Source: Candidatus Omnitrophica bacterium UBA6215
Lineage (GTDB): Bacteria; Omnitrophota; Gorgyraeia; Pluralincolimonadales; Pluralincolimonadaceae
Length of the DNA stretch: 64,000 bases
Direction: 5' to 3'
Assembly: GCA_002421665.1 (NCBI GenBank)
Contig: DISH01000004.1
Coordinates: forward strand, 245,109-309,108
Below are positions 210 through 19,214 of this stretch, in pieces. Made by a program: the position numbers and the translations under genes. Under the pieces are notes generated by a model. The model did not search any database and was not told the DNA's origin. It was given only the letters and a program-made list of their open reading frames with translations. The stretch's first letter is position 1. Every line of letters begins with the position of its first letter.

Positions 210-211
210 CG

Positions 212-1267
212 ATGGGCGGCGTAAAGATATCCGGGAAAAAACTGCACTGCTTCATTAACAAGACCCTTATTAAGGCCGGCGCAAGGAAAGACGTGGCCGG
301 CTATGTGTCCGGAGGGTTGATACAGACTTCCCTGCGCGGTGTTGATTCGCACGGTGTGAGGTTACTGCCCCATTACATTGCTTCGATGAAAGCCGGCAGG
401 ATCAACCCCGATCCGAAATACAGGTTCAGGAAGACATCTTTTTCCACGGGGACCCTGGACGGCGACCATACCTTCGGTCATGCCGCAGGAATGGAAGCGG
501 CAAGGAAGGCCGTAGAGTTGGCTCGAAAATCCGGCACCGGCCATGTAGCGGTCTGTAATTCCACGCATTTCGGGGCAGCCGCATATTATTCCCTCGAAAT
601 AGCGAAGCATGACATGATAGGCCTGAGTTTTACCCATGCTGATTCGCTTATGAAGACCTACGCGGGCAAAAGGGCTTTCCTCGGCACGAACCCCATCTCG
701 TTCACCGCGCCGATACAGGGCGAAGGTCCGCTTTGCCTGGATATGGCAACAACCCTGTATAACTTCAACAAGGTTAAGCAGCTTAGGGAACATGGGCTTG
801 ACGCGCCTGAAGGTGTAGGGGCGGATGAGGGCGGTTTTGACACTACGGACCCCCACAAGATCTCAATGCTTTTGCCGATAGGCGGATACAAGGGTTACGG
901 TTTGAGCCTTATGGTCGAGGTCCTGTGCGGTATCCTTACGGGTATGCCTTATGGTCCTCATATATCCAGTATGTTCAAGGCGCCTCTTAGCCAGAAGAGG
1001 TTCTTGGGTCATTTTATATGCGCTATAAAGATCGATTGTTTCCAGGACAAGAAGGTTTTTAAGAAAAGGATGGCCGCCCTGGTAAGGGAGCTGCGCAGGG
1101 AGCCGTCCATAGAAAAAGGCCGTCAAGTCCAGGTTGCCGGGGATCCGGAGAAGAAGACCTTTGCGCGAAGGATGAAAGAGGGTATTCCTTTGAGTGCGGC
1201 TGAATTCGAGGATTTCAACAGGCTATCGGATGAATATGGTGTTAAATTGGAGATCATATCGGATTGA
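212..1267 (+). CDS. Ldh_2 family (malate/L-lactate/sulfolactate-type) 2-hydroxyacid dehydrogenase
   Basis: Family-typical N-terminus ...LRGVDSHGVRLLPHY..., then TGHVAVCNSTHFGAAAYY and GTNPISFTAP. Alternative ATG at 191 overlaps the upstream stop. Confidence 0.8.
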   Translation: MGGVKISGKKLHCFINKTLIKAGARKDVAGYVSGGLIQTSLRGVDSHGVRLLPHYIASMKAGRINPDPKYRFRKTSFSTGTLDGDHTFGHAAGMEAARKAVELARKSGTGHVAVCNSTHFGAAAYYSLEIAKHDMIGLSFTHADSLMKTYAGKRAFLGTNPISFTAPIQGEGPLCLDMATTLYNFNKVKQLREHGLDAPEGVGADEGGFDTTDPHKISMLLPIGGYKGYGLSLMVEVLCGILTGMPYGPHISSMFKAPLSQKRFLGHFICAIKIDCFQDKKVFKKRMAALVRELRREPSIEKGRQVQVAGDPEKKTFARRMKEGIPLSAAEFEDFNRLSDEYGVKLEIISD

Positions 1268-2934: not shown

Positions 2935-3703
2935 GATCGAAGCTGTCGGGATGATAAGGAGCGCGCTAACGCTGCTTCCGAAAGGAGCCTCATGCCTCGT
3001 TATGGGCGCCCTCGATTGTGATTTCAGCCTGAAGGACCTCATACGCAAGTACCCGGAATACGGGAAGGTGTTTAAGCCTGCCGCGGGGGATCCGCGCTCC
3101 TGCGAACTTAAGGCCGTCCTCGGGGCGCTAGGGTGCGGGGATGTCAATACGATCGATATTAACGAAAGGGCCGATATCAAGACAGACCTTTCATCAACCG
3201 TCGAAAGTTCTTTAACGGGGAAGGCCGATCTCATACTGGATTGCGGGACCCTGGAGCACATATTTGACACCAAGTCCGCCGTTGTAAATATGAACCTTAT
3301 GCTCAAGAAAGGCGGGATAATAATACATATGAGCCCTGTGTCGTTTTACGGGCACGGATTCGTAAATTTTAACCCCTCATATTTCGATTCTCTATACGCG
3401 GGATCCGGATATGACCAGATTTTTAGGATGATGAACGTGACCGTATATAATCCTTTTTTCGTGATAGACACTTCGCGGTTGTCCGCGTTCCCGGCATTTA
3501 TATGCAAGGCCGTTAATAAAATTATGGTAAGGGCCCCGCTCTTCAGGTTTAACGTAAATTTGCCGTTGCGAGGGCAGAAGAAGAGATTTTCGTTATTTGA
3601 GTCCGCCATATCGCAGTTCGGCATGCCGAAGAACCTGGTGTATTGCTGCGTGTACAGGAAGACGACGGAGGCGCTTAAGATACCCTATGACGTGTGGGAG
3701 TGA
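2924..3703 (+). CDS. putative class I SAM-dependent methyltransferase
   Basis: DLILDCGTLEHIFD ... LMLKKGGIIIH resembles post-motif-I/II regions of class I MTs. Start uncertain (the ORF is open from 2900). Confidence 0.5.
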   Translation: MGLRIEAVGMIRSALTLLPKGASCLVMGALDCDFSLKDLIRKYPEYGKVFKPAAGDPRSCELKAVLGALGCGDVNTIDINERADIKTDLSSTVESSLTGKADLILDCGTLEHIFDTKSAVVNMNLMLKKGGIIIHMSPVSFYGHGFVNFNPSYFDSLYAGSGYDQIFRMMNVTVYNPFFVIDTSRLSAFPAFICKAVNKIMVRAPLFRFNVNLPLRGQKKRFSLFESAISQFGMPKNLVYCCVYRKTTEALKIPYDVWE

Positions 3704-3705
3704 AC

Positions 3706-4743
3706 ATGCGCGTCGCTAAGAACTTATTGGGTCCCGACTACTGCTATGACCCGTCAAGGACAGCGGATACGCTCAACCCGGGGCAGAAAGAGGCGAGAGA
3801 GGAGTTCTTGAGGGAGATAGACTCAAAGGGACTTTATACAGTACTCGAGAGGTGCCCTTTTTGCGGCAATGAAGCGTGTACACAGATCTCCGAAACGGAT
3901 GCCAGGGGTCTTCCCTGCGCTATCGCGGTATGTGACAGGTGCGGCGGTTGTTTTAAGCTTAAGGTTTTTACGCCTGAGGCCGCCGCGTTTCATTATGGAA
4001 AGATATCATACCGGCTAAGGGGTAAAGACCCGTGCACGCGGGCGGTTGAGAAGCTGTTTTGGGACAGGGTGAAGATGTTCGCCTGTCCGCGCTACAATTT
4101 CATAAGGCGTTTCGTAAAACTTGAGCCCGGCAGGGACCTGGTTGCGGAGTTCGGGTGCGGTGACGGCGCGAACCTGATGCCATGGAAGAAGAACGGGTTC
4201 GATGTGCTCGGGATCGAATATGATCCGGCTATGTGCAGGTTCGGGCGCGAAAAAGGGATGGACCTGGTACCGGCTGACTTTATGACCTATGAATTCGGAG
4301 ACAGGAAGCCGAATCTGGTGATACTCTCCCATTTTCTCGAGCATGTGCCGGATATATCTGCGGTGCTCAGCCGATTGCGTTCGGTAGCCGGGCCTAAGGG
4401 AAAAGTTTTTATCGAGGTACCGGGCGCAAGGGTCCACGGGATAAGGAAACCTCTGTCGGGATTCGACGTGGAGCATAACTATTATTTTGATCTGGGCTCG
4501 CTCTCAGGAGTTCTGGAAAAGAACGGGTTTAGTAAGGATTACGGCGATGAGTTCATCCGGGTTATGTGCTCCTCGACTTGCGCCCGGCCGGCAGCCTTCC
4601 CTGCAAAACCGGGTTACAGAAGGCTCGGTGATATCATGAGAGATGCAGAGGAAGGCAGATTGAGGATAAAGCTGCTTGATAAATTCAATAATGTATATTA
4701 CAGGCTGCGCTACGCGGCCATATCCGCAGGAGCCAAATTATGA
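3706..4743 (+). CDS. SAM-dependent methyltransferase with N-terminal Cys4 zinc-ribbon (sugar C-methyltransferase-like architecture)
   Basis: CPFCGN...CDRCGG zinc ribbon followed by MT motif I EFGCGDGANL. The ATG at 3706 lies 3 nt past the upstream stop (a GTG at 3694 is also possible). Confidence 0.7.
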   Translation: MRVAKNLLGPDYCYDPSRTADTLNPGQKEAREEFLREIDSKGLYTVLERCPFCGNEACTQISETDARGLPCAIAVCDRCGGCFKLKVFTPEAAAFHYGKISYRLRGKDPCTRAVEKLFWDRVKMFACPRYNFIRRFVKLEPGRDLVAEFGCGDGANLMPWKKNGFDVLGIEYDPAMCRFGREKGMDLVPADFMTYEFGDRKPNLVILSHFLEHVPDISAVLSRLRSVAGPKGKVFIEVPGARVHGIRKPLSGFDVEHNYYFDLGSLSGVLEKNGFSKDYGDEFIRVMCSSTCARPAAFPAKPGYRRLGDIMRDAEEGRLRIKLLDKFNNVYYRLRYAAISAGAKL

Positions 4744-5471
4744 AAAAGGCAGGGACTATAGCGATGATACCCGCGAGGATGGGCAGTACGAGATTGGCCA
4801 TGAAGAACCTCGCTTTGGTAGCCGGAAAGCCTATGATCTATTACGCGATAAAGGCCGCGAAGGATTCACGCGTTTTCGACAGGATAGTAGTTAACTCGGA
4901 GAGCGATGTTTTTGCGCGAATAGCGAAACGCTACGGTGTGGATTTCTATAAAAGGCCGGAACAGTGGGCCGGTTCGACGGTCAAATCTGATTTTGTGGTC
5001 TACGATTTTATTTCAAATAACCCGTGCGATATGGTAGCCTGGGTGAACCCGACGTCGCCGTTGCAGCAAGCCGATGAGGTAAGGCGCGCGGTTGAGCATT
5101 TCAAGAAAGAAAAGCTCGATTCGATGATAACGGTCAAGGATGAGCAGGTCCATTGCGTTTACCGCGGTAAACCGGTCAATTTTGACATTAAAAAGGTGTT
5201 TGCACAGACCCAGGACCTACTTCCCGTACAACCTTTCGTGTATTCGGTGATGATGTGGAAATCTGATATATTCAGGAGCGAGTTCGAGAAGAGAGGTCGA
5301 GCTTTCTTTTGCGGAAAGACGGGATATTTTCCCGTAAGCAAGCTCTCGGCCGTCATAATAAAAAGACAGGAGGACCTTATGCTTGCGGATTACCTGTTGA
5401 AGTCATTGTCAAGAGGCGCTGCTTACAGGGTCCGTTACGATAAACTCGCCGTAAAAGGCAGGAGAGGTTAA
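4740..5471 (+). CDS. acylneuraminate/Kdo-type cytidylyltransferase (CTP_transf_3 family, CMP-sugar synthetase)
   Basis: Hallmark N-terminus IAMIPARMGSTRLAMKNL...GKPMIYYAI and ~240 aa size. ATGA overlap with the upstream gene. Confidence 0.85.
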   Translation: MKKAGTIAMIPARMGSTRLAMKNLALVAGKPMIYYAIKAAKDSRVFDRIVVNSESDVFARIAKRYGVDFYKRPEQWAGSTVKSDFVVYDFISNNPCDMVAWVNPTSPLQQADEVRRAVEHFKKEKLDSMITVKDEQVHCVYRGKPVNFDIKKVFAQTQDLLPVQPFVYSVMMWKSDIFRSEFEKRGRAFFCGKTGYFPVSKLSAVIIKRQEDLMLADYLLKSLSRGAAYRVRYDKLAVKGRRG

Positions 5472-5472
5472 A

Positions 5473-6819
5473 GTGGGAAAGCTTGTATCTATCATAATAA
5501 GGACTAAAGACGAGGAACGTTGGATAACGCAATGCCTTAACAGCGTATTTGAACAGGAATATAAGGATTTTGAGGTCATACTTGTCGATAATGAGAGCCA
5601 GGACAAAACGCTGGAGAAGGCGAGACAGTTCAAGCTGGCGAAAGTGGTCAAATGCAGCGACTACCTTCCGGGCAAAGCGCTCAACATCGGCATAAATGAA
5701 GCCAGGGGAGAGCTTATCGCCTGCCTGTCAGGGCACTGCATCCCGGTAAACGGCAATTGGCTGGGCAGCCTGGTCAGGGACTTTGATGACGACAAGGTCG
5801 CGGGCGTATACGGTCGCCAGGAACCTATGAGCTTTACCCCTGACATGGACAAACGGGACTTGGCGCTTGTGTTCGGGCTGGACAGGAGGGCGCAGGTCAA
5901 GGACAGTTTTTTCCATAACGCGAACAGCATGATACGCAGGGATATCTGGCAGAAGGAACCCTTCGATGAATCGGTGACGAACATCGAAGACAGGGTCTGG
6001 GCGCAAAAGGTGCTGCAGGCGGGTTACCGTATTATCTACGAGCCCGACGCGAGCGTTTACCATTATCACGGTATCCACCAGGACGGCAACAGGGAAAGGT
6101 GCGCGAATGTCGTGAGGATACTCGAGAACCTGCACGCGGGTTATAATTATAAGTCCATCGATGCCGCCAAGCTTAATACCGTCGCCGTTATACCGGTAAA
6201 GGGCGAGATTAAATATCTTGCCGGTAAGCCGCTGGCGGAATATACGATAAGGCGCGCGCTTGAATCTAAATACATAAAAAACGTAATCATTTCAACCGAC
6301 AACCCGGAATTGGCGAAAATAGCCCGCGATATGGGGGCCAAGGCTCCTTTCCTCAGGGATGCCTCGATGTCCAAGGAATATATAGACATCGGGCGGGTCC
6401 TGCAGTATTCCCTGGGCAGGATCGAGGAGGGAGGTATATTCCCCGACCTCATTGTGAGTCTTGAGATAACTTTTCCGTTCAGGCCCGAAGGCCTGCTTGA
6501 TGACATGATCCTGCAGTTGACGCAGAAAGGCCTCGACAGCGTCATCGCGGTCAAGCCGGAGAATAAGACCGTATGGAAAGAGAATGACGGCAGGCTCATG
6601 CAGATCGAAGGGAGCCTTACTCCCAGGCAGTTCAAGGAACCGAGTTTCCTTGAACTTAAGGGAATAGGCTGTGTTACGCATCCTGAGTTCTTGCGCGAGG
6701 GCAGTCTTTTGGGGGAAAAGGTCGGTATATATGAAATTGACAACCCGTATTCATCCATAGAGGTCAGAGGTGATGAGGATTTCAAGCTGGCGGAAAAACT
6801 CATAAAGGGGTGGTTCTAA
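5473..6819 (+). CDS. bidomain protein: N-terminal GT2 glycosyltransferase fused to C-terminal acylneuraminate-type cytidylyltransferase
   Basis: N-terminal VSIIIRTKDEERWITQCL...VILVDNESQD is a GT2 fold. The C-terminus from ~residue 235 (VAVIPVKGEIKYLAGKPL..., ISTDNPELAKIA) is CTP_transf_3-like. GTG start preceded by GGAGAGG. Confidence 0.8.
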   Translation: MGKLVSIIIRTKDEERWITQCLNSVFEQEYKDFEVILVDNESQDKTLEKARQFKLAKVVKCSDYLPGKALNIGINEARGELIACLSGHCIPVNGNWLGSLVRDFDDDKVAGVYGRQEPMSFTPDMDKRDLALVFGLDRRAQVKDSFFHNANSMIRRDIWQKEPFDESVTNIEDRVWAQKVLQAGYRIIYEPDASVYHYHGIHQDGNRERCANVVRILENLHAGYNYKSIDAAKLNTVAVIPVKGEIKYLAGKPLAEYTIRRALESKYIKNVIISTDNPELAKIARDMGAKAPFLRDASMSKEYIDIGRVLQYSLGRIEEGGIFPDLIVSLEITFPFRPEGLLDDMILQLTQKGLDSVIAVKPENKTVWKENDGRLMQIEGSLTPRQFKEPSFLELKGIGCVTHPEFLREGSLLGEKVGIYEIDNPYSSIEVRGDEDFKLAEKLIKGWF

Positions 6820-6820
6820 A

Positions 6821-7819: not shown

Positions 7820-7834
7820 TCAACGGAGATCTTG

Positions 7835-9441: not shown

Positions 9442-10496
9442 TGATTTCTGCTGATTTCAGACACGAGGTCCTTGGAGTTAATAATGCTGAAGACTGGCTA
9501 AATGTCGCCGGCGAGTGCGCTTATGCCCCGTATAATGTCTTTGACCCGGATTTTATAGAACGAAACACGCGGGAGGGCTCTAACGCGTTGAGCGTGATAG
9601 TCTATGAAACCTCAAGCGGGAAACCGGCGGCCATATTCCCCGCCGAACTCTATACGAAATCGGCATCGTTGATAATTATCAGGATCGCTAAATCTTCCGC
9701 GTACGGAGGACTTATGATCGCCGGCGGGTATATGCGCGAGGCCGGTTCGATAAAGAGATATTTTTATGAAAATATCATATCAGGTTATTACCGATGTAAG
9801 GCTATTGACATGGTTGAGGTTATCCCGTCCCCTCTGCTGGAGATAGATTTTCCTGGGCTTACGCATGCTGCGGTGCCGTTCTATCGGGCGGAGGCTGAAA
9901 TAAATTCTTTGCTGTATACCGACCTGAAAGGCGATTTTACCGAAAAACTCGGTTATAACGTCAAGAGGGAATCGTTTAAGGGTATGGATGCCCTGAAAAG
10001 CCTTAAGGTGATGACAGGTTCTGAAGAAGGCGCTTTTGGGCTGTTGAAAGGGCTTGAATGCGGGAAAGCCGCGACGTTAAATGTTGAACCTATACCTGGG
10101 CGGGTCCTTGAAAAAATGCTGGGTTCACGGATGGTGGCGACAGTTATCGCGGTTTCCGGTGGTAAGGCGCTGGCCGCCGTATCTTACAGCTGCCGCGGGA
10201 AACTGGCCACTTTGCATTATAACGCGAGCACTCCGGAGGGGAAGAAGTCATTTGTCAACAAGGGTCTTATGCTTTGGTGTATTCAGGATTGCAAAAATAA
10301 GGGCGCTGACTATTTTGTGCTCGGCAACGGATGGGAACAGGGAAGGGATAAGAAAGAGAGCGAGCAACTCGAAAGGATGGCTTTTTTCAAAAAGAGTTTT
10401 TCCACTTCCGAGTCTTCCACCTTCAGGTTCAGCATGCCGCTTACTCTTAAAGGTCTCCTGGCGCAGGCGGGCAACCGCGCGATAAAGAGACGATGA
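9438..10496 (+). CDS. FemAB/CelD-like GNAT (Acetyltransf_6, BioF2-like) protein
   Basis: C-terminal ...KGADYFVLGNGWEQG... and overall FemABX-like layout. ATGATGA overlap with the upstream gene. Confidence 0.6.
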   Translation: MMISADFRHEVLGVNNAEDWLNVAGECAYAPYNVFDPDFIERNTREGSNALSVIVYETSSGKPAAIFPAELYTKSASLIIIRIAKSSAYGGLMIAGGYMREAGSIKRYFYENIISGYYRCKAIDMVEVIPSPLLEIDFPGLTHAAVPFYRAEAEINSLLYTDLKGDFTEKLGYNVKRESFKGMDALKSLKVMTGSEEGAFGLLKGLECGKAATLNVEPIPGRVLEKMLGSRMVATVIAVSGGKALAAVSYSCRGKLATLHYNASTPEGKKSFVNKGLMLWCIQDCKNKGADYFVLGNGWEQGRDKKESEQLERMAFFKKSFSTSESSTFRFSMPLTLKGLLAQAGNRAIKRR

Positions 10497-12400
10497 TGGA
10501 AAAAAAGAAAATGGAAACGGTATTTCTTGCTACGGCTTCCGAAGCCTCTCAATTCCTTGCCCCCGGAGAGTCGGACGCGGGCAGTTCCATAATTGCCATG
10601 AGCCCTTCCGTAAAGGTTTTATTGGAGAAGAACGGGCTCAAACCCGGAAGCTCGGGCTGCTATTTCGATACAGGCTCCCATAAAAAACTGCTTGAGAAGT
10701 CCGATGAGATAGTAAGATGGATAAAAGAGAACGCCAGGTTCGAGGATATGGGCCTGGGCACGGCGGAAGGATACGAAAGCTCCTTTATCTATTGGACGAG
10801 GTTCTCGGTACATCATTGTATGTGGGCAATAGAGGTGGTCTCAAGGGCGGTTGAGGACCTCAAACCGGATTCGCTTGCCGCGTTCGGTATCCCGGAAGTG
10901 CCCGTACCGAGTTTATATTTGGAGAAGGAAGATAAGGTGGCCGGCAGGCTGGCGGAAAGGGTGGCCTCTAAAAACGGACTTACCTTCAGGGAATTATCCC
11001 GCAAACCCCGCAGGTTCACCCGGCAGGTTTTGTCATGTTCTATTTACATAAATTCCGCTGTCAGGTTCCTGCTTGAGACATTCAGGTTTTACGCCTGGCT
11101 TTTAAAGAATTCATACGGCAAGGGAAAAAAGACGGCGGTTTTTACCACCTCATCCTACCAGATGGATAAGACTGCGCAAGAGATGGTAAAGGAGCGTCCC
11201 GGCCTGCGTTGTGTTATGCTCATCTATCCGATAGATACGCTTTTTTATATCCCAGGACCGCTTTTTTTTCTGGACTCTCCGACCGCAGGCATGTATATAA
11301 AACGACAAAGGGAACATTTTGCTGCGCTCGCAGAGAAAATCGAATCCGATAAGGGTATCTTTTCTTACAGGGGGATATTCTTCGGTGATATAGTGGCCCA
11401 AAGGCTCAGGATGAGCGTTTTTAACTATATTACAGGTCTTCAGATGTGGACGCTTAAACTTAATACGGCTATAAGGACTATCAACCCCGGCATTGTGGTA
11501 TCCAACGGCAATCGTGACGATGATATAATAACCGCGAAACTTTGTTCGGGGATGGGCATCGAGTCTTTAATAATCAGCCATGGTTCTCATGTAAAGCCGG
11601 GGAATTTTTACGAGAGGACGGAATGGTCTGAGCTTGGGGCAAAGCTTATAGGCGGGCCTTTTTCCTTGGTTGCCATGCAGTCCCCGTTGGCGGAGGGTTA
11701 TCTCGGGGAGTTTCCGCCGCGCGGCAGACCGGTAAAGACCGGTCCTTTGATATGGGGCAAGCCCGTTGACAGGAGCTCCGGAGAGTCTTTTGCCGCTCAG
11801 GTATTGGGGGATAAGTATGTGAAGGGGAAGACCAGGATCATCGTTCATGCCGGTACCCCAAAGCCAAGCAAGAGCCTGAGACTTTATGTTTATGAAACCC
11901 CTGAGGAATATATTAATGCCATTAGGGAATTGGCGGACGCGGTCGAACGGGTATCGGACGCGGTCCTGATAGTGAAGTTCCGTCCAAGCCCGGAGATAAG
12001 CATAGAGGATATTAAGGCGTCGGTGCCTTTTTCGAAAAAGGTTATATTGAGTGTAGGGGAGCCTTTCCTTAAGGTTCTGGCTATGGCCGACCTTCTGGTA
12101 AGTTTCTCGTCTACTACGATCGAGGAGGCCGTACAGAACGGGGTGCCGGTCCTGCTGTACGGCGGGCAGGGGAGGTATTCGCACATCCCGGCTTATGAGG
12201 TTGAAGACAGTTCTGCGCCTGTCGAAAGGAGCGCGGCGTATCATGTACGCGGCCCGGGCGGACTGCTGCCGGCCCTCGATGGCATCCTTCGTCTGGGCAT
12301 AGACGGACAGGGAAGGGACAAAGGGCTTTTTGACAAGTTCATATACCCGGAAGGGGAACGCATCCCATTGGAGAAGATAATAGATGAAGTCAGCCGATAA
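10493..12400 (+). CDS. large protein with TagF-like (glycosyl/glycerophosphate transferase, GT-B) C-terminal domain; N-terminal region of unknown function
   Basis: C-terminus LIVKFRPSP ... ADLLVSFSSTTIEEAVQNGVPVL resembles the Glyphos_transf (KPHP ... DYSS) pattern. The N-terminal ~400 aa are unrecognised. Confidence 0.5.
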   Translation: MMEKKKMETVFLATASEASQFLAPGESDAGSSIIAMSPSVKVLLEKNGLKPGSSGCYFDTGSHKKLLEKSDEIVRWIKENARFEDMGLGTAEGYESSFIYWTRFSVHHCMWAIEVVSRAVEDLKPDSLAAFGIPEVPVPSLYLEKEDKVAGRLAERVASKNGLTFRELSRKPRRFTRQVLSCSIYINSAVRFLLETFRFYAWLLKNSYGKGKKTAVFTTSSYQMDKTAQEMVKERPGLRCVMLIYPIDTLFYIPGPLFFLDSPTAGMYIKRQREHFAALAEKIESDKGIFSYRGIFFGDIVAQRLRMSVFNYITGLQMWTLKLNTAIRTINPGIVVSNGNRDDDIITAKLCSGMGIESLIISHGSHVKPGNFYERTEWSELGAKLIGGPFSLVAMQSPLAEGYLGEFPPRGRPVKTGPLIWGKPVDRSSGESFAAQVLGDKYVKGKTRIIVHAGTPKPSKSLRLYVYETPEEYINAIRELADAVERVSDAVLIVKFRPSPEISIEDIKASVPFSKKVILSVGEPFLKVLAMADLLVSFSSTTIEEAVQNGVPVLLYGGQGRYSHIPAYEVEDSSAPVERSAAYHVRGPGGLLPALDGILRLGIDGQGRDKGLFDKFIYPEGERIPLEKIIDEVSR

Positions 12401-14213
12401 ACGTTCGTCAGCCATGTGGTTCTTCCTGAAACGTTACAAAAGGATATATGTCGCCCTTTTCCTGGTTACCATTACTTATGCGGTCCTCGAGAGCATAAAT
12501 ATATCCATACTGCTGCCCCTGTTCGATACGGTCCTTAATAATACCGGCCGGGAAGGAAGACTTTTCGCGTTCATAGATGCCGTTATTTCGCATATGCCGT
12601 TCAAACAGCCTTTTATGAATGTCTTTTTGCTGGCGATCCTGCTCGTAATTTTCAAGGAGATTGCCGCTTTCGTAAGGATAAAACTTGTCGGGTACGGTGT
12701 AGGGAAGGTCGTATGCGACGTCAAAGAGGAGGTATTCGATAAATTCGCGTTTTCCGATTACCAGTTCTTCCTGGATAATAAACAAGGGAAGTTGATCTAT
12801 GACCTGCTGACCGCTTCGGGCAGGCTGGGCAATTGCCTTCAATTCTTCCCGGACCTCGTTACCGCCGTTTTGATGACGGTCACCATAGGCGTGCTTCTTT
12901 TCTCCATATCCGTCAAGATGACCATCTTCCTTATGATCGTAGGGGTGATTTACAGCGTAGCAATGCATTTCCTCGCGCAGAGGGTTTCGTACAATATAGG
13001 GGCCGAGAGGGCCATGGTCAGCACCCAGGCCAACGTGATAGCTAATGAGCTTATAGACGGCGTAAAACATATCAAGGTCTCCGGCTCATTCGATATATGG
13101 AGGGGTAATTTCCGCAGGGCGGTAAGGAAGTTCAAAGACCTGGTAATAAGGGATTTTATCTGGGTCAACGTTCCCGACAGGATGATACAGGTAATACCCG
13201 TCGTGATACTTACTGCCATCGCGTTCTACCTTTACAAGAGGGCGGATGCGGTGGAATTCCTGACCGGGAACCTGGTGACCATGGGTGTATACATATATGC
13301 GTTTTACAGGGTCAGCCCGTACCTGGCTTCTTTCGGAAGGCTCAGGATGCAGATAATGGGTTCCTTGCCGGACGTGGAACTTCTTTATGAGGACCTGTTA
13401 AAAGAGACCAATTTTATAAAGGACGGCACGCTCGACATAAGGGATTTCCGCAGGGAGATAAGGTTTAGCAGGGTCAACTTTGCCTACAAAGGCAGTAAGG
13501 AAGTGTTAAGGGACATCGACCTGAGCGTGGAAGCGGGCAAGACTACGGCTGTAGTCGGTTCTTCGGGCAGCGGTAAGACTACATTGATCAACCTAATGGT
13601 ACGGCTCTTCGACCCGGATAGCGGCAGTATCACGATAGACGGGGTTGACCTCAAGGATATCAGGCATTCCTCCCTTATACACCTTATAGGCATGGTCAGC
13701 CAGGACACGTTCATATTCAACGGGACCATAAGGGACAATATTGTCTTCGGCCTTGAAGGTATCGCGGAGGACAAATTGGTCGCGGCATCCAAGCTTGCCA
13801 ACGCCCACGGTTTTATCGAAAGTTTCCCGTCGAAATATGATACGGTCGTCGGGGATAAAGGTCTTAAGTTATCCGGAGGTCAAAGGCAGAGGATAGCCAT
13901 AGCCAGGGCGATATTGCGCGACCCGAAGATACTGATACTCGACGAGGCCACGAGCTCGCTTGACTACCACTCAGAGGTAACGGTCCAGCAGGCGATAAAC
14001 ACGGTATCCAAGAACAGGACGGTGGTAGTTATAGCCCATCGGTTGTCCACCATCATAAACGCGGATAAGATAATCGTCCTTGACAGGTTCAGGATAGCGG
14101 ACCAGGGCACGCATGCCGAACTCATGGGCCGCGAAGGGATATACAAATCACTTTATGAAAGCCAGGGGAAATTGCATAATATACAAACCGGAGGTAATGC
14201 CAGCGATGAGTGA
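12384..14213 (+). CDS. ABC transporter, fused permease/ATPase (MsbA/PglK-type exporter)
   Basis: Six predicted TM helices N-terminally; Walker A GSSGSGKTT, signature LSGGQRQRIAIARA, Walker B ILILDEATS. No C39 peptidase domain. Confidence 0.9.
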   Translation: MKSADKRSSAMWFFLKRYKRIYVALFLVTITYAVLESINISILLPLFDTVLNNTGREGRLFAFIDAVISHMPFKQPFMNVFLLAILLVIFKEIAAFVRIKLVGYGVGKVVCDVKEEVFDKFAFSDYQFFLDNKQGKLIYDLLTASGRLGNCLQFFPDLVTAVLMTVTIGVLLFSISVKMTIFLMIVGVIYSVAMHFLAQRVSYNIGAERAMVSTQANVIANELIDGVKHIKVSGSFDIWRGNFRRAVRKFKDLVIRDFIWVNVPDRMIQVIPVVILTAIAFYLYKRADAVEFLTGNLVTMGVYIYAFYRVSPYLASFGRLRMQIMGSLPDVELLYEDLLKETNFIKDGTLDIRDFRREIRFSRVNFAYKGSKEVLRDIDLSVEAGKTTAVVGSSGSGKTTLINLMVRLFDPDSGSITIDGVDLKDIRHSSLIHLIGMVSQDTFIFNGTIRDNIVFGLEGIAEDKLVAASKLANAHGFIESFPSKYDTVVGDKGLKLSGGQRQRIAIARAILRDPKILILDEATSSLDYHSEVTVQQAINTVSKNRTVVVIAHRLSTIINADKIIVLDRFRIADQGTHAELMGREGIYKSLYESQGKLHNIQTGGNASDE

Positions 14214-15135
14214 GCGAGGATACACGATACAGAACAAGGAGATAAGGTTCGAGGTTACCAACATGTGCAACGCGAACTGCGTTATGTGCCCCAGGGAGAA
14301 GATGACGCGCCCGCAGGGCATACTGGACATGGGCCTCTATATTAGGACGCTGGATGAAGCCTGTTCCATGGGCGCTACGGTCGTCAGCCTCGAGAATTTC
14401 GGTGAGACCTTCATGGATCCGCTGTTCTTCGAAAGGGCCGCGTATGCCAAGGGCAAGGGTATGAAAGTCCTTACCATTACCAACGGTTCGCTCTTCAACA
14501 AAAAGGCCGCGGAAAGGTCCCTGTATTTCATAGATAAAATAAGGTTCAGCGTTTACGGCACCACAAAGGAAGTATACGAGTCCATACACAGAGGCCTCAA
14601 GTACGACGCGGTGGTAGAGAATATCGAATACCTCCTTGACCTGAAAAAGAGGACCGGCAGCGCCGCCCCGAAGGTTGAGGTCTATTTCCTGTATATGGAC
14701 CAGAATAAACACCAGGCGGAGGAGTTTAAGGAGAAGTGGCTCGGCCGGGTCGATGACATAGCGATGTGGAAGCCCCACAATTGGAGCGACGGGCGCTCAT
14801 ACAGGCAACTCGATGGTGATAAGAAAAAGGTTACCTGCGGCAGGCCTTCCAGGGGGCCTATACAGGTGCAGTGGGACGGTCTTGTGGTCCCGTGCTGCTT
14901 CGATTACAATTCCAGCATTGTTCTCGGCGACCTGAATAAGCAGACGTTAAGGCAGGTTCTGGAAAGCAAAGATTATGATGACTTCAGGAAAGCTCACGCA
15001 AAAGCTGAATTCTCGCTCTACCCGTTCTGTGACAGCTGCGACCAGTTGAGGAAAAGGGAAGACGTCCTTGTCTTTACCACCATAAAAGACGCCAAGGTAG
15101 GGGCGGTCAATACGACCTACGAAAAAGTGGACTGA
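14206..15135 (+). CDS. radical SAM protein with C-terminal SPASM/twitch Cys-rich domain
   Basis: CNANCVMC (CxxxCxxC) near the N-terminus; C-terminal cysteines CGRP...PCCFD...CDSCDQ. Start at ATG 14206 (GGAGG 11 nt upstream) or ATG 14197; overlaps the ABC gene end. Confidence 0.85.
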   Translation: MSERGYTIQNKEIRFEVTNMCNANCVMCPREKMTRPQGILDMGLYIRTLDEACSMGATVVSLENFGETFMDPLFFERAAYAKGKGMKVLTITNGSLFNKKAAERSLYFIDKIRFSVYGTTKEVYESIHRGLKYDAVVENIEYLLDLKKRTGSAAPKVEVYFLYMDQNKHQAEEFKEKWLGRVDDIAMWKPHNWSDGRSYRQLDGDKKKVTCGRPSRGPIQVQWDGLVVPCCFDYNSSIVLGDLNKQTLRQVLESKDYDDFRKAHAKAEFSLYPFCDSCDQLRKREDVLVFTTIKDAKVGAVNTTYEKVD

Positions 15136-16742
15136 TGCCTGACTCGGCCGGCGGCACAATACTCTTCAACCCGGTAAGCGTTGTCCATTACAGGAACGTC
15201 CCGCGTTTTGCCGGGGGGCTTCCCGGTTGGAAGGTCAAGAAGATAGTCAACCCGGACATGCCCTGGTCGTCAAAGATGATCGATGATGACGATATCCGGT
15301 TCGAGCGCGGAATACTTCCCCGGAAGGCGCTTGACGGTGTCAGCGCCGTAGTAGTATTTTCCTCGCAGCCCAGGGTTCCTTCCGCTTCGCTGATAACCGG
15401 GGCTGCCGTCAGGGGCATACCCGTTATTGCGGTAGAGGAAGTGCTGCAGATGATGCTTGAACAGGGGTATGTTAACGAGTATTTCCTTCCCGTGGACAGG
15501 CTTTACGCGGGTTCCGATTACGAAAAGAATGGTTTTACGGATTTTGGGATCCCCGGTGAGGCGGTGGAATCGGCTGGTAATGTCTTCGGGCATGTGGAGC
15601 CGGGGGAAGTCCCGGAAGAAAAGAAGGACGCGATCAGGCGCAGGTTAGGCATATCTCCGGGCAGGAAGGTCGCGGTATTGAGCCTTGCTTACCAGACGCC
15701 GAGCGGAGAAACGCTCGAGGTCAGGAGGCGCCTTATCGAGACCGTATCCCGCGGGTTGCCGGCGGATTATGTTCTTGTAGTAAAGCCTCACCCTGCGGAA
15801 CAAGATGCGGGGGTATGTGATTTTATAAAAGAGTGCGCCCCTTCGGCCGCGGCGGCGGACCGCTTTACCCCTATAGGGGACATACTGGCGATAGCAGATG
15901 TCCTCTTAAACCGGGGGAATTCGCAGGTAGTTATCGACGCCTTTAACAGGAGAGTGCCGGTAATTGTTGTCCCGTTGGGGAGGAGGACATTTTTCCACGG
16001 GTTGCTGGACGGCGTGATAGCGGATGATGAGCAGGGGATAAAGAAAGCGATCGAACTGATAGGCCGTGAGGGTTTCAAGCTTTACGGAGTTGTTACATCG
16101 CTCTACGCCGGGTCTTCAGCCGATGATGTCCTGCGGAATGTTTGTGCGGGGATAGCGCAGGCCGCGCGATCACGGCAGGTATTTGAGCGGACGCAAAGGC
16201 TCTGCGACCTTGCAGTGTATTGGGCATGGATGGGATATCCCTCGCAGGCGGCCAGGATATTGCGCGAATGCGGCCATATAAGCGCCCGGCCGGCCCTGTC
16301 GAGGCTAATAGCGTCCAGGGCAACGACGGCGGATTTCGAGACGCTTAGGGATACTTGGGCTTCACGAAGATACAGGGCATGGCTGCTTAAAAGCATGCGG
16401 ATAAAGCAGGCTTTTGATTCAGGAGAACGCCTGGATGACAACCAGACGGGGTGGCTGGCCGACTATCCTCCGCGGATGAACAGGGAGTATTTCGTGGATT
16501 TTGCCTGTATGCTCTGCTGGTGCCTGCTCGGGTCCGGCAGGACGGCGGAATGTGCGGATATATTCGACAAGATAAGGGAAGAATACGGATATTTGAAGTT
16601 CGTGCGTTGTATTGGGGCCGCTTGCGCCCGCGGCAAGGCGGCGCCCGATCTCTCGTTATGGAAGACCTGCGCGGTCTCCGGACTGAAACGTAGCGCAAGG
16701 AATGCATTGTTTGAGATGAGGATGGCGATAAAAAATATATGA
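15135..16742 (+). CDS. putative TagF-like GT-B transferase (Glyphos_transf-like), otherwise unknown function
   Basis: VLVVKPHP ... ADVLLNRGNSQVVIDAFNRRVPVI resembles the TagF-family core. The C-terminal ~200 aa are an unrecognised helical region. Confidence 0.45.
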   Translation: MPDSAGGTILFNPVSVVHYRNVPRFAGGLPGWKVKKIVNPDMPWSSKMIDDDDIRFERGILPRKALDGVSAVVVFSSQPRVPSASLITGAAVRGIPVIAVEEVLQMMLEQGYVNEYFLPVDRLYAGSDYEKNGFTDFGIPGEAVESAGNVFGHVEPGEVPEEKKDAIRRRLGISPGRKVAVLSLAYQTPSGETLEVRRRLIETVSRGLPADYVLVVKPHPAEQDAGVCDFIKECAPSAAAADRFTPIGDILAIADVLLNRGNSQVVIDAFNRRVPVIVVPLGRRTFFHGLLDGVIADDEQGIKKAIELIGREGFKLYGVVTSLYAGSSADDVLRNVCAGIAQAARSRQVFERTQRLCDLAVYWAWMGYPSQAARILRECGHISARPALSRLIASRATTADFETLRDTWASRRYRAWLLKSMRIKQAFDSGERLDDNQTGWLADYPPRMNREYFVDFACMLCWCLLGSGRTAECADIFDKIREEYGYLKFVRCIGAACARGKAAPDLSLWKTCAVSGLKRSARNALFEMRMAIKNI

Positions 16743-18292
16743 AAAAGAACAAGATAATCCTGGTCAACCCCGGAGTGCATTTCCTCGAGCCGGTGGGATA
16801 CGGCATGTATCCCAACACGGCTATAATGATATTGGCAACTGTACTTAAAAATGCCGGGTTCCTTGTGAAGGTGATTGACGGCAGGTACCATCCGATAGAT
16901 AAAGCCGTCGGGCTTATCCGCTCGGAGATCGATGATGACCTGGCGTTCGTGGGTTTTTCAGTCATGACCGTCCAGGTGCCGTGGGCTTATTATGTATCAC
17001 AAGCGATAAAGGCCGAGGACCCCGGCTGTAAGATAGTGTGGGGGGGTGTACACCCTACACTCTTCCCGGACCAGACCGTGGAGGATCCCGCTATTGACGC
17101 CGTTGTAATAAACGAGGCGGCTTCTACGTCCGCGTCCCTGGCGGCCGCCTATGCCGAGGGACGGATGCCTTCCGGCATACCCGGCGTATATTACAAGGAG
17201 GGCTCGAGGGTATTCAGGAACAGTCCTAACCGTGAAGGCGATACCTTCGATAACATACCATACATAGATTTTAACCTTATAGACCACAGGCGTTATTCGA
17301 GGAATAACAACATAGCTATCGAAGAGTTCTACGCCGAGAAATATAAGGATTGCAGGGTATACCCGATCATTACATCGCTTAGTTGCACATACAAATGCAC
17401 GTTTTGCATAAACGTGATACTGGACAGGAAGTACTGCTTCAGGTCGGCGCCGGAAATAGTTGACAGGATCAAGTTCCTTAAGTCCTCGTACGGCGCGGAT
17501 TTCATACAGCCGATGGACGAGAATTTCTTCATAAACAAGAAGAGGACCTTCGAGTTCCTCGATATGCTGGAAAAGGAGGACCTGGGTATCAAATGGCGCC
17601 CGCAGGTCCGCGCGGATTATTTTAACGAGAATTACATAGATGTCGAGACAGCCAGGAGGCTAAGCCGTTCCGGGATGATCGTAGCGGCAATGGGTGTCGA
17701 GAGCGCCTCGCAGGATATACTTGATAAACTAAAGAAGCAGATGAAGGTCGAGAGCATCATGAAGGCGGTTGAGGTGCTTTCAAAGACGGACATTGTTCCC
17801 AAGATGAATTTCATGGTAGGCCTACCCGGAGAGACAAGAGAAGAGATAGAAAAGACCTATAAACTTGCCGTAGAGATACGCAAGAAGGCAAAGAAGAGCT
17901 GTGTTACTATCTCGCCTTTCAGGCCGTACCCGGGCTCGCAGCTTTATGAACAGTGCATAAACGAATACGGATATAAACCGCCTTCGAGCCTGGCCGAATG
18001 GGCCGCGCTTTCACGGGACGACCTGGTTGAGGGCAGGGGATATGAGTCTTTTGAGAATTACAAGTGGATAAAGGACCCGGTACGGCTCAAGGCCATGCAG
18101 GGCATATATGAGGAGATAGCCTGGTACAGGCCGCAGAGGGACGAGAGGTGGCACGGGAAACTGCGCAACCTGATAGCGTATTGGAGGTTCAAGACGGGTT
18201 ATTTCGGCCTCGTGCGACTTGAAAAAGGGTTTTTTGATATGTTGTCATCGTTAAAACGGTTGTTGTCGCGCGGGAGGGCCGGTGTTGCCTGA
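16739..18292 (+). CDS. B12-binding domain radical SAM protein (second copy)
   Basis: N-terminal B12-binding-like domain (VWGGVHPTLFP), rSAM motif SCTYKCTFC. ATGA overlap with the upstream gene. Confidence 0.85.
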   Translation: MKKNKIILVNPGVHFLEPVGYGMYPNTAIMILATVLKNAGFLVKVIDGRYHPIDKAVGLIRSEIDDDLAFVGFSVMTVQVPWAYYVSQAIKAEDPGCKIVWGGVHPTLFPDQTVEDPAIDAVVINEAASTSASLAAAYAEGRMPSGIPGVYYKEGSRVFRNSPNREGDTFDNIPYIDFNLIDHRRYSRNNNIAIEEFYAEKYKDCRVYPIITSLSCTYKCTFCINVILDRKYCFRSAPEIVDRIKFLKSSYGADFIQPMDENFFINKKRTFEFLDMLEKEDLGIKWRPQVRADYFNENYIDVETARRLSRSGMIVAAMGVESASQDILDKLKKQMKVESIMKAVEVLSKTDIVPKMNFMVGLPGETREEIEKTYKLAVEIRKKAKKSCVTISPFRPYPGSQLYEQCINEYGYKPPSSLAEWAALSRDDLVEGRGYESFENYKWIKDPVRLKAMQGIYEEIAWYRPQRDERWHGKLRNLIAYWRFKTGYFGLVRLEKGFFDMLSSLKRLLSRGRAGVA

Positions 18293-19214
18293 ATTCAGCG
18301 TCCAGGTCTGCTGTTATAATTCCGAAAGGTACCTGGATGAGACCATAAGGAGCGTGATCGCCCAGACATTCAAAGACTGGGAGATGGTCATAGTCAATGA
18401 CGGTTCCACCGATGCTACCGAGTCCATAGTAAGGCATTATATGGATAAAGGTGTCCCGATAACGTATTTCAGGCAGGAGAACAGGGGTTTTGCCGCTGCC
18501 AGGAACAAAGCCGTTGAGCTTTCCAGGGGAAGGTGGATCGCCATACTCGACCATGACGACGTGTGGTATCCGGGCAAGCTTAAGGCGCAGAGCGAGGCGA
18601 TAGACCGTTATCCCGGGGCCAAGCTGCATTTTGCCAATTCCGAATGGTTCCTTGATTCCGGAAGGACGGTCAGGACTACCGTGGAGGGCGGCAGGTTTAA
18701 AAGCGGCATCCTGGACAGCGCTTTTACGAGGCTGCTTACCGAAGGGTGTTTCATAGATTCGGAGACGGCGGTAATAGATAAGCAAGCCTTGCTTGAGTGC
18801 GGCGGATTCAATGAAAGGTATGCTTATATAGTCGATTACGATGCGTTCATAAAGATATCGAGGTCGAACCCCGTTTGTTATGAAGATGACATACTTGCCA
18901 GGTGGAGGATGCACGAGCGCCAGGCAAGCAGCGTAATGAAAGCGACGATGTTCGAGGAGTACGTTCTCATGTTCGAGGAGATACTCGACAGGTATGACCT
19001 GCCCGGCGATGTGCGCAGGCGCATCAGGGACGAGATCACGAGCAACTCGGTTAAATATTCGGCGTTGAGGTTAGGCGAAGGCAGGATAGGAAAATCTCTC
19101 TCGTTCGCGATAAAGAGGCTCGATCCTTATTCGATGGCGCGCTTCGCGGCGATAAAAGCGCCAAGGGCCGCCTATCGTAAGATCAAAAGTATCACGAGAA
19201 GGAAGTGGGAATAG
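18282..19214 (+). CDS. GT2 family glycosyltransferase
   Basis: FSVQVCCYNSERYLDETIRSV...VIVNDGSTD...ILDHDD (DXD). GTG/TTG start overlapping the upstream stop. Confidence 0.8.
   Translation: MLPEFSVQVCCYNSERYLDETIRSVIAQTFKDWEMVIVNDGSTDATESIVRHYMDKGVPITYFRQENRGFAAARNKAVELSRGRWIAILDHDDVWYPGKLKAQSEAIDRYPGAKLHFANSEWFLDSGRTVRTTVEGGRFKSGILDSAFTRLLTEGCFIDSETAVIDKQALLECGGFNERYAYIVDYDAFIKISRSNPVCYEDDILARWRMHERQASSVMKATMFEEYVLMFEEILDRYDLPGDVRRRIRDEITSNSVKYSALRLGEGRIGKSLSFAIKRLDPYSMARFAAIKAPRAAYRKIKSITRRKWE

What the first reader, a model, noticed from the sequence alone, without database searches (positions are those of the whole stretch)
12384..15135. Radical SAM/SPASM gene overlapping the 3' end of an MsbA-type ABC exporter: RiPP-like wiring without a visible precursor peptide
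SPASM rSAM + ABC exporter is the classic core of ribosomal-peptide maturation/export systems. Here the pair sits in the middle of a sugar cluster, and the gene overlaps leave no room for a precursor ORF. Two readings follow. One is a sugar/lipid-linked-intermediate-modifying SPASM enzyme coupled to the flippase, which would be novel biochemistry. The other is a cryptic tiny precursor encoded elsewhere.
Basis: inference. Interest (0 to 1): 0.6.

Follow-up and report, generated by a model that had tools for sequence, protein, structure and literature searches.

The report
Sugar-tailoring radical SAM enzyme beside glycan exporter
The two overlapping genes are real, but they are a sugar-modifying radical enzyme of the BtrN type and a lipid or polysaccharide exporter packed together in a 54-kb cell-surface glycan operon, not a hidden peptide-antibiotic system.

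Summary
A fused TMD-NBD ABC exporter (12384-14213) overlaps by 8 nt a 309-aa radical SAM gene (14206-15135) inside a sugar cluster.

The RiPP reading fails every test I could run:
- The enzyme has a twitch domain, not a full SPASM domain. It has five conserved C-terminal cysteines and no CX2CX5CX3C motif. Four of those cysteines align with BtrN's single auxiliary cluster.
- BtrN, a sugar/cyclitol dehydrogenase, is its best solved relative by sequence profile (E 4e-19) and by fold.
- There is no room for a peptide-recognition domain, and no peptidase or plausible precursor ORF anywhere in the window.
- The ABC protein lacks a C39 peptidase domain and scores best against polysaccharide and lipid exporters.
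- 33 of 46 gene junctions in the cluster overlap, so the overlap is ordinary.

Across 86 homologous loci a full-length ABC exporter occurs in only 16. An 83%-identical ortholog sits in the same gene block with no ABC gene. Commoner partners are an uncharacterised 565-635-aa protein family (33 loci) and B12-radical SAM enzymes (24).

Best reading: an uncharacterised BtrN-like enzyme that oxidises or epimerises a sugar building block in the cytoplasm before export. It is a new member of a known kind, of modest interest.

The parts
12384..14213 (+). Fused TMD-NBD ABC exporter (609 aa) of the MsbA/HepA/PglK kind, with no C39 peptidase domain. It is the likely exporter or flippase for the glycan or glycolipid made by this module.
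   Evidence: Pfam ABC_membrane plus ABC_tran only. The best NCBIfam hits are HepA 408 bits, MsbA 365 bits and PglK 227 bits, all below their cutoffs. Among half-transporters in the PDB the best are Sav1866, BmrA and MsbA. The transmembrane region begins at about residue 25.
14206..15135 (+). Twitch-domain radical SAM enzyme (309 aa). The radical SAM cluster motif is C21-x3-C25-x2-C28. The single auxiliary-cluster motif is C211-x13-G225-x4-C230 ... C275-x2-C278, plus an invariant C231.
   Evidence: Pfam Radical_SAM plus SPASM. Family alignment A1 gives the invariant residues. The profile search finds BtrN at E 4e-19, with BtrN C169/C187/C232/C235 aligned to C211/C230/C275/C278. The AF2 model has pLDDT 89.6, and its top Foldseek PDB hit is BtrN 4m7t. 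There is no CX2CX5CX3C motif and no hydrophobic segment in any of 30 homologs.
14190..14213 (+). Junction between the two genes: Shine-Dalgarno-like GGAGGT (14190-14195), the radical SAM ATG at 14206 and the ABC stop TGA at 14211-14213. The 8-nt overlap is typical of translational coupling.
   Evidence: Read directly from the sequence. 33 of 46 junctions in the cluster overlap in the same way.
10493..12400 (+). Conserved 635-aa protein with no Pfam family ('u635'), weakly GT-B-like at its C-terminus. Its family is the commonest conserved neighbour of this radical SAM family.
   Evidence: It is 42% identical to the gene directly upstream of the radical SAM gene in L084. It relates to the 565-aa neighbour family of distant homologs by hhalign (93% probability, E 3e-7). 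The family is present in 33 of 86 loci. Only weak DUF6716 (putative glycosyltransferase) hits were found.
15135..16742 (+). Conserved 535-aa protein ('u535') with an N-terminal GT-B fold and a C-terminal helical domain. It lies immediately downstream of the radical SAM gene in the closest clade.
   Evidence: It has no Pfam hit. The AF2 model has pLDDT 90.4, and the top Foldseek hits are UDP-sugar 2-epimerases and the TagF polymerase (E about 2e-8).
16739..18292 (+). B12-binding radical SAM enzyme (517 aa), a probable methyltransferase and a frequent companion of the twitch enzyme.
   Evidence: Pfam B12-binding plus Radical_SAM. B12-radical SAM genes occur in 24 of 86 homologous loci and in the syntenic blocks seen.
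18282..19214 (+). GT2 glycosyltransferase that closes the conserved block.
   Evidence: Pfam Glycos_transf_2, E 4e-34. It is syntenic in L001, L081 and L084.
1264..6819 (+). Upstream part of the conserved block: a second B12-radical SAM gene (1264-2934), methyltransferases, a CTP_transf_3 cytidylyltransferase (4740-5471) and a GT2 + CTP_transf_3 fusion (5473-6819). This content suggests a CMP-activated sugar.
   Evidence: Pfam. The same order is seen in L081, L084 and L090.
43494..46759 (+). WecA-type initiating transferase (43494-45284) and a Wzy_C / O-antigen-ligase family protein (45281-46759). This is the lipid-linked assembly and ligation machinery that an ABC flippase would serve.
   Evidence: Pfam Glycos_transf_4 and Wzy_C. 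No Wzx was recognised anywhere in the window. The precedent is the H. pylori WecA/Wzk/WaaL pathway (PMC2841628).

Best explanation
The radical SAM gene encodes a soluble twitch-domain enzyme with one SAM-cleaving [4Fe-4S] cluster and one fully cysteine-ligated auxiliary [4Fe-4S] cluster. It tailors a sugar, or sugar-like polyol or acid, that serves as a building block of a cell-surface glycan. Inferred mechanism, by analogy with BtrN: the 5'-deoxyadenosyl radical abstracts the hydrogen on a carbinol carbon. The substrate radical then passes an electron to the auxiliary cluster, giving a keto-sugar. Neighbouring enzymes then aminate, reduce (net epimerisation) or C-methylate that keto-sugar. 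The GT-B-like proteins u635 and u535 and the GT2 enzymes build the product into a lipid-linked glycan. The upstream ABC half-transporter moves that glycan across the inner membrane for ligation. The 8-nt overlap is ordinary translational coupling in a tightly packed operon and does not indicate a dedicated enzyme-transporter pair. Shown here: the domain architecture, the cysteine pattern, the nearest relatives and the gene-neighbourhood statistics. Inferred: the reaction type, the substrate and the exporter's cargo.
For: The C-terminal domain has only five conserved cysteines and no CX2CX5CX3C motif in any of 30 homologs. Four of them align with the four ligands of BtrN's single auxiliary cluster. 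BtrN is by far the best PDB hit by profile (E 4e-19, against 2e-6 for the next, DesII), and the following hits DesII and BlsE are also sugar enzymes. BtrN is also the top Foldseek hit for a confident model. The family is highly conserved across phyla (mean column identity 56%), with many invariant polar and aromatic residues. That pattern fits a small common substrate (inference). Neighbours across 86 loci are sugar genes: Polysacc_synt_2 dehydratases, DegT and class-III aminotransferases, aldo-keto reductases, SIS+CBS isomerases, GFO/IDH/MocA oxidoreductases, GT2/GT4, TagF-like transferases and methyltransferases. The window is a 54-kb glycan cluster with WecA-like, ligase-like and heptosyltransferase genes. 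The ABC protein scores best against HepA, MsbA and glucan exporters and has no peptidase domain. Overlapping junctions are the rule in this cluster, 33 of 46.
Against: No member of this family has been characterised, and I found none in the literature. Identity to BtrN is only about 16%, and Foldseek scores for the peptide-modifying enzymes anSME, CteB, SkfB and SuiB are within about two orders of magnitude. Twitch domains also occur in RiPP enzymes such as SkfB, and function is hard to predict from similarity in this subfamily (PMC10114670, PMC6231123). The model shows six beta-strands in the core, unlike BtrN's abridged barrel (the BtrN feature is from my own knowledge). In the closest clade the ABC gene lies directly upstream in 7 of 8 loci of the same block type, the window included. 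Some functional link to export within that clade therefore cannot be dismissed.
Confidence: 0.7

Rival explanations
1. RiPP module: the radical SAM enzyme matures a ribosomal peptide encoded by a cryptic small gene, and the ABC protein exports it.
For: The Pfam SPASM hit and the adjacent ABC exporter resemble sactipeptide and ranthipeptide loci. Twitch-type RiPP maturases exist, such as SkfB (PMC10114670). Bacteriocin-exporter NCBIfam models also hit the ABC protein, but at lower scores.
Against: The seven-cysteine motif is absent, and CxxxCxxC starts at residue 21, so there is no fused RRE. None of the 56 window proteins scanned has a PqqD/RRE, peptidase, cyclodehydratase or lanthipeptide domain. 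Only 8 intergenic gaps of 40 nt or more exist, and none holds a credible peptide ORF. Cys/Gly-rich small ORFs number 9, against a mean of 26 in shuffled sequence, and none lies near the pair. 70 of 86 homologous loci lack an ABC exporter. Neighbours are sugar enzymes everywhere.
Confidence: 0.03
2. Coupled enzyme-flippase pair: the radical SAM enzyme docks on the ABC transporter and modifies the lipid-linked glycan at the membrane just before or during flipping.
For: The ABC gene lies immediately upstream in the window and in L001, L003, L005, L081, L085 and L090 (rSAM identity 58-91%), and in L020 and L027 of a more distant clade. 12 of the 16 loci with an ABC exporter also carry the u635/c565 partner family.
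Against: L084, whose radical SAM gene is 83% identical, keeps u625-rSAM-u536-B12 rSAM-GT2 with a 4-nt overlap where the ABC gene would be, and has no ABC gene within 6 kb. In L086 and the P0014 locus the ABC gene is three genes downstream. 70 of 86 loci have none. The enzyme has no hydrophobic segment or extra docking domain. Its strong conservation across phyla argues for a common small substrate rather than lineage-specific lipid-linked glycans (inference).
Confidence: 0.12
3. Protein or cofactor maturase: the enzyme modifies a residue of a neighbouring protein (as anSME does) or matures a metallocofactor, rather than acting on a sugar.
For: anSME is the second Foldseek hit. The best NCBIfam hit is the tungsten-cofactor oxidoreductase maturase TIGR04317 (101 bits). 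The enzyme co-occurs tightly with two uncharacterised large proteins, u635 and u535.
Against: The TIGR04317 hit covers only the N-terminal radical SAM core (residues 11-174) and lies far below the cutoff of 380 bits. anSME needs two auxiliary clusters, and this protein can bind only one. No sulfatase or tungsten/molybdenum enzyme is in the window. The profile search clearly prefers the sugar enzymes BtrN, DesII and BlsE.
Confidence: 0.07

Closest known systems
BtrN (2-deoxy-scyllo-inosamine dehydrogenase of butirosin biosynthesis; PDB 4M7T/4M7S)
   Same: It has the radical SAM CxxxCxxC motif near the N-terminus and is a small single-chain enzyme without an RRE. Its twitch domain carries CX(n)GX4C ... 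CX2C, and all four auxiliary-cluster cysteines align. It is the best PDB hit by profile (E 4e-19) and by fold (E 6e-11, TM 0.74 on BtrN). It acts on a sugar-like carbinol in a pathway that also uses aminotransferases (PMC9012708).
   Different: Identity is only about 16%. The window protein is about 60 residues longer and has six predicted core strands. It carries an extra invariant cysteine (C231) and a distinctive invariant WKPHNW motif. It sits in cell-envelope glycan clusters of uncultured anaerobes, not in an aminoglycoside antibiotic cluster. Its substrate and reaction are unknown.
Other radical SAM enzymes acting on sugars or nucleotide-sugars: DesII, BlsE (and, from my own knowledge, the twitch epimerases NeoN and HygY)
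   Same: They are the second and third families found by the profile search against solved structures. They establish that radical chemistry on sugar C-H bonds is known.
   Different: The matches cover only the radical SAM core (E 2e-6 to 2e-5). DesII and BlsE use different C-terminal domains. NeoN and HygY could not be compared here because no sequences were available.
RiPP rSAM-SPASM maturases with dedicated exporters (AlbA, CteB, SuiB, PqqE, SkfB)
   Same: They share the SPASM/twitch superfamily fold and are often encoded next to an ABC exporter.
   Different: The window protein has no second auxiliary cluster motif, no RRE, no precursor and no peptidase. Its neighbours are sugar enzymes, and the ABC adjacency is not conserved.
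Wzk/PglK/MsbA/HepA-type ABC half-transporters that flip lipid-linked glycans or export polysaccharide
   Same: The architecture is the same fused TMD-NBD form. The best family scores are to HepA and MsbA. The window also encodes a WecA-like transferase and a ligase-family protein with no recognisable Wzx, as in the H. pylori WecA/Wzk/WaaL pathway (PMC2841628).
   Different: It is below the curated cutoff of every named equivalog. The cargo is unknown. Two unassigned polytopic membrane proteins (22796-24316 and 30799-32529) could still be a divergent Wzx or Wzy.

Membership tests
RiPP rSAM-SPASM maturase/exporter module | SPASM domain with the seven-cysteine motif CX9-15GX4C-gap-CX2CX5CX3C-gap-C, binding two auxiliary clusters (PMC6231123) | tested here: not met
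   Only C211, C230, C231, C275 and C278 are conserved. CX2CX5CX3C is absent from all 30 aligned homologs.
RiPP rSAM-SPASM maturase/exporter module | Peptide-recognition (RRE/PqqD-like) domain, either fused or encoded nearby | tested here: not met
   CxxxCxxC begins at residue 21 (15-42 in homologs), leaving no room for an N-terminal RRE. No PqqD-type hit was found in any of the 56 window proteins.
RiPP rSAM-SPASM maturase/exporter module | Precursor peptide gene adjacent to or co-conserved with the maturase | tested here: not met
   Junctions from 8650 to 19214 all overlap. The 17 mostly intergenic small ORFs are Cys/Gly-poor and far away. Cys/Gly-rich small ORFs are fewer than in shuffles (9 against 26) and none lies near the pair. 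Close homolog loci are equally gap-free.
RiPP rSAM-SPASM maturase/exporter module | Conserved co-occurrence of the maturase with its ABC exporter | tested here: not met
   A full-length ABC exporter is present in 16 of 86 loci. Eight loci have it directly upstream. It is absent from the syntenic block of the 83%-identical ortholog.
Twitch-domain radical SAM enzymes (BtrN-like) | CxxxCxxC radical SAM cluster motif and SAM-binding core | tested here: met
   C21/C25/C28 are invariant, as is the G66-E67 'GGE'-type motif. Pfam Radical_SAM scores above its cutoff.
Twitch-domain radical SAM enzymes (BtrN-like) | Truncated SPASM domain binding one auxiliary cluster, fully ligated by four cysteines in BtrN (PMC9012708, PMC6231123) | tested here: met
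   At the sequence level, CX13GX4C (C211...G225...C230) plus CX2C (C275, C278) align with BtrN C169, C187, C232 and C235. Cluster content itself is not testable here.
Twitch-domain radical SAM enzymes (BtrN-like) | BtrN is the nearest characterised relative by sequence and by structure | tested here: met
Twitch-domain radical SAM enzymes (BtrN-like) | Two-electron oxidation of a secondary alcohol on a sugar or cyclitol substrate | not testable with these tools
   This needs anaerobic reconstitution and candidate substrates. Context (aminotransferases, aldo-keto reductases and other oxidoreductases next to homologs) is suggestive only.
MsbA/PglK/Wzk/HepA-type glycolipid or polysaccharide ABC exporters | Fused six-helix TMD plus NBD half-transporter without accessory peptidase | tested here: met
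   Pfam shows ABC_membrane 33-305 and ABC_tran 375-524 and nothing else of substance. It aligns full-length with MsbA, Sav1866 and BmrA structures.
MsbA/PglK/Wzk/HepA-type glycolipid or polysaccharide ABC exporters | Score above the curated cutoff of a named equivalog (MsbA, PglK, HepA) | tested here: not met
   Scores against cutoffs are HepA 408/725, MsbA 365/602 and PglK 227/1000 bits. The protein works like this class, but I do not file it as any named ortholog.
MsbA/PglK/Wzk/HepA-type glycolipid or polysaccharide ABC exporters | Genomic setting with an initiating transferase and a ligase but no Wzx flippase | tested here: inconclusive
   WecA-like and Wzy_C proteins are present. No Wzx/Polysacc_synt hit was found. 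Two polytopic membrane proteins remain unassigned.

The most novel reading that the evidence does not exclude
The twitch radical SAM enzyme and its co-conserved, uncharacterised partners form an undescribed oxygen-independent radical tailoring module for cell-envelope glycans in anaerobes. The partners are the u635/c565 family, u535 and a B12-radical SAM enzyme. The module would make an oxidised, aminated or C-methylated CMP-activated sugar not yet seen in O-antigens. In one clade it would have its own dedicated ABC exporter.
Probability: 0.3. Interest if true: 0.55.

Novelty: new member of a known kind. Interest (0 to 1): 0.3.

Why it matters
The result removes a false lead: this is not an orphan RiPP system, and genome miners should not treat a Pfam 'SPASM' hit next to an ABC exporter as peptide wiring without checking the cysteine motif and the neighbours. 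On the positive side, it defines a well-populated but uncharacterised family of BtrN-like enzymes (at least 194 clusters at 90% identity). The family sits in surface-glycan clusters of Omnitrophota, Planctomycetota, Acidobacteriota, Nitrospinota and Proteobacteria, together with two protein families of unknown function. If characterised, it would extend radical SAM sugar chemistry from antibiotic pathways to primary cell-envelope glycans of anaerobes. That would be a useful advance, though not a surprising one.

Tried and rejected
- Literature searches for a characterised member of the family, or for radical SAM enzymes in O-antigen, capsule or nonulosonic-acid clusters, returned nothing relevant.
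- The review PMC4326806 is not held.
- My first greedy ORF caller lost the radical SAM gene in 10 loci. I seeded it with the tblastn match and repeated the run.
- I tested whether the 546-aa neighbour in L086 is the same protein as u535. BLASTP found no similarity.
- A profile of the u635/c565 family against the PDB and Pfam gave only insignificant or weak GT-B hints, so its function stays open.
- The 337-aa upstream neighbour family of distant homologs has no counterpart in the window.
- I considered calling the ABC protein MsbA proper. I rejected this as a membership claim because it scores below the cutoff and is co-conserved with the variable sugar block.
- I considered C231 as an epimerase-type hydrogen donor. 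This is left as speculation, because C231 neighbours a cluster ligand and no coordinates could be inspected.
Full report
**Observation.** The two genes exist as described. ORF 12384-14213 (+, 609 aa) has an ABC transmembrane domain and an ABC ATPase domain. The downstream ORF ends at 15135. Of its possible starts, the ATG at 14206 is the best supported:
- GGAGGT lies 10 nt upstream.
- The resulting 309-aa protein matches the N-termini of homologs.
- It matches one public gene call on the same genome.

This start gives an 8-nt overlap (ATGAGTGA) with the ABC stop codon. The protein hits Pfam Radical_SAM and SPASM. The overlap itself carries little information. All nine junctions between 8650 and 19214 overlap, and 33 of 46 junctions across the whole cluster do.

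**Setting.** Pfam mapping of 56 ORFs shows one co-directional glycan cluster from about 191 to 53883. It contains:
- two B12-binding radical SAM enzymes;
- about six SAM methyltransferases;
- two CTP_transf_3 cytidylyltransferase domains;
- about fourteen glycosyltransferases;
- sugar dehydratases and epimerases, and a DegT aminotransferase;
- a WecA-type initiating transferase (43494-45284);
- a Wzy_C/O-antigen-ligase family protein (45281-46759);
- two GT9 heptosyltransferases and a GmhB-like phosphatase.

Housekeeping genes follow (UDG, PriA, def, fmt, GAPDH). Cluster mates at 90% identity or more are annotated as Candidatus Omnitrophota MAGs. The closest GTDB locus is labelled as an uncultured Planctomycetia MAG. 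The same genome region appears on 22 metagenome contigs.

**What the radical SAM protein is.** An alignment of 30 homologs (46-90% identity) has these invariant cysteines: C21, C25, C28, C211, C230, C231, C275 and C278. The C-terminal pattern is CX13GX4C ... [quoted passage not shown] The CX2CX5CX3C element that builds the second auxiliary cluster is absent from all 30. The motif definition is from PMC6231123. This makes it a twitch domain with one auxiliary cluster (PMC9012708, PMC10114670).

A family profile searched against all PDB sequences finds BtrN at E 4e-19 over both domains. BtrN C169, C187, C232 and C235 align with the four conserved cysteines. The next hits are DesII (2e-6) and the cytosylglucuronate decarboxylase BlsE (2e-5), which are both sugar enzymes. 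A confident AlphaFold model (pLDDT 89.6) has BtrN as its top Foldseek PDB hit (E 6e-11). However, anSME, DesII, CteB, SkfB and SuiB follow closely. No NCBIfam model reaches its cutoff, and the best (TIGR04317) covers only the N-terminal core. The protein has no hydrophobic segment, and its cluster motif starts at residue 21, so no peptide-recognition domain can precede it.

**The RiPP hypothesis.** It fails each test I could run:
- There is no seven-cysteine motif and no RRE.
- No window protein has a peptidase or other RiPP domain.
- Only eight intergenic gaps of 40 nt or more exist, and none holds a credible peptide ORF.
- The ABC protein has no C39 peptidase domain. It scores best against HepA (polysaccharide export), MsbA and glucan exporters, and bacteriocin exporters rank lower.

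One caveat applies: twitch-type RiPP enzymes exist (SkfB, TqqB; PMC10114670). The domain type alone is therefore not decisive; the combined evidence is.

**Is the ABC adjacency conserved?** I fetched 80 genome loci and further metagenome loci.

| Partner | Loci of 86 | Loci of 50 with at least 5 kb on both sides |
|---|---|---|
| Full-length ABC exporter | 16 | 11 |
| u635/c565 family | 33 | 23 |
| B12-radical SAM | 24 | 19 |

Eight loci have the ABC exporter directly upstream: L001, L003, L005, L020, L027, L081, L085 and L090.

Within the closest clade a block is conserved down to 58% identity. Its order is B12-rSAM, CTP_transf_3, GT2+CTP_transf_3, u635, ABC, twitch rSAM, u535, B12-rSAM, GT2. 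The 83%-identical ortholog in L084 has the same block, but its u625 gene overlaps the radical SAM gene by 4 nt. It has no ABC gene there or within 6 kb. In two other relatives (71% and 67% identity) the order is aminotransferase, rSAM, B12-rSAM, 546-aa protein, ABC. The ABC gene remains a recurrent but dispensable member of one module.

**The real partners.** Unbiased clustering of neighbours found a family of about 565 aa at +1 in 15 loci and within four genes of the rSAM gene in 20 loci. This family is related to window gene 10493-12400 (u635) by hhalign, with 93% probability and E 3e-7.

The +1 gene of the window, u535 (15135-16742), has only about 50 known homologs. Its model (pLDDT 90.4) is a GT-B fold resembling UDP-sugar 2-epimerases and the TagF polymerase, followed by a helical domain.

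The immediate neighbours are otherwise heterogeneous, but they are sugar enzymes throughout:
- SIS+CBS isomerases;
- aldo-keto reductases;
- GFO/IDH/MocA oxidoreductases;
- TagF-like transferases;
- Polysacc_synt_2 dehydratases;
- DegT;
- GT2 and GT4 glycosyltransferases;
- methyltransferases.

**Mechanism.** The following is inferred, not shown. By analogy with BtrN (PMC9012708), the enzyme cleaves SAM and abstracts a carbinol hydrogen from a sugar or sugar-like intermediate. It then passes an electron to the fully ligated auxiliary cluster, producing a keto-sugar. The frequent neighbours that process keto-sugars fit this scheme: aminotransferases, reductases, and B12-radical SAM methyltransferases. 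The strong conservation of the family across phyla (mean column identity 56%, many invariant polar residues) suggests a common soluble substrate, such as a nucleotide-sugar. It argues against lineage-specific lipid-linked glycans.

The ABC half-transporter most plausibly flips or exports the finished lipid-linked product. The window has WecA-like and ligase-like genes but no recognisable Wzx. This is the arrangement described for H. pylori WecA/Wzk/WaaL (PMC2841628). Two unassigned polytopic membrane proteins keep this last point open.

**Verdict.** The RiPP reading is rejected, and the sugar-enzyme reading is supported. Obligatory coupling to the flippase is not supported. The enzyme is a new, uncharacterised member of the known twitch radical SAM class that acts on sugars. 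Interest is modest.

Noticed in passing
window 15135-16742: u535 is a small orphan family of about 50 members with no Pfam domain. Its model shows a GT-B fold plus a helical domain of about 230 aa. One homolog (P0166, 747 aa) carries a B12-binding domain, and another (P0168) carries a polysialyltransferase Pfam hit. This hints at a link to the neighbouring B12-radical SAM enzyme and to CMP-sugar chemistry.
   Followed up: partly
window 10493-12400: u635 belongs to a widespread no-Pfam family of 565-635 aa. It is the commonest conserved neighbour of the twitch radical SAM family (33 of 86 loci). Only weak glycosyltransferase-like (DUF6716/GT-B) hints were found, and its function is unknown.
   Followed up: partly
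L089 248-2079 (same genome as the window, JGI sample 3300001592): In one metagenome copy of this locus the ABC gene is called as two ORFs (218 + 399 aa), while the radical SAM gene is intact. This is either a frameshift variant or an assembly error.
   Followed up: no
window 1264-9441 and 16739-18292: Methylation capacity is unusually dense: two B12-binding radical SAM enzymes and about six SAM methyltransferases, including an FkbM type, lie within 18 kb. This suggests a heavily O- or C-methylated glycan.
   Followed up: no
window 191-1267: An Ldh_2-family (malate/L-lactate dehydrogenase type 2) gene opens the cluster. The syntenic locus L081 instead carries KARI-like, SDR and 2-hydroxyacid dehydrogenase genes at a similar position. 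This hints at a hydroxy-acid substituent or an unusual acid sugar.
   Followed up: no
window 22796-24316 and 30799-32529: Two polytopic membrane proteins (6 and 9 hydrophobic segments) have no Pfam match even at E = 1. They are candidates for a divergent Wzx, Wzy or GT-C.
   Followed up: partly
window 34718-36672: The longest ORF starting at 35383 overlaps the RmlD-like gene (34718-35590) by 208 nt. The true start of the GT4 gene is probably further downstream.
   Followed up: no
window 40938-41328: This is the only sizeable non-coding gap (391 nt) inside the glycan cluster. It follows a DUF4330 gene and precedes a GT4 gene, and is probably an operon boundary or promoter region.
   Followed up: no
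window 1-64000: Nearly every gene is on the + strand, and GC skew is positive in every 2-kb bin (0.06-0.19), as expected for a leading-strand segment.
   Followed up: no
L091 (P0068 locus) and the P0014 locus: Some homologous loci hold four to six radical SAM genes (B12-type, SPASM-type and plain). They sit alongside TPP-dependent enzymes and DmpG/DmpF-like aldolase and dehydrogenase genes, which suggests branched-chain or otherwise exotic sugars made by radical chemistry.
   Followed up: no
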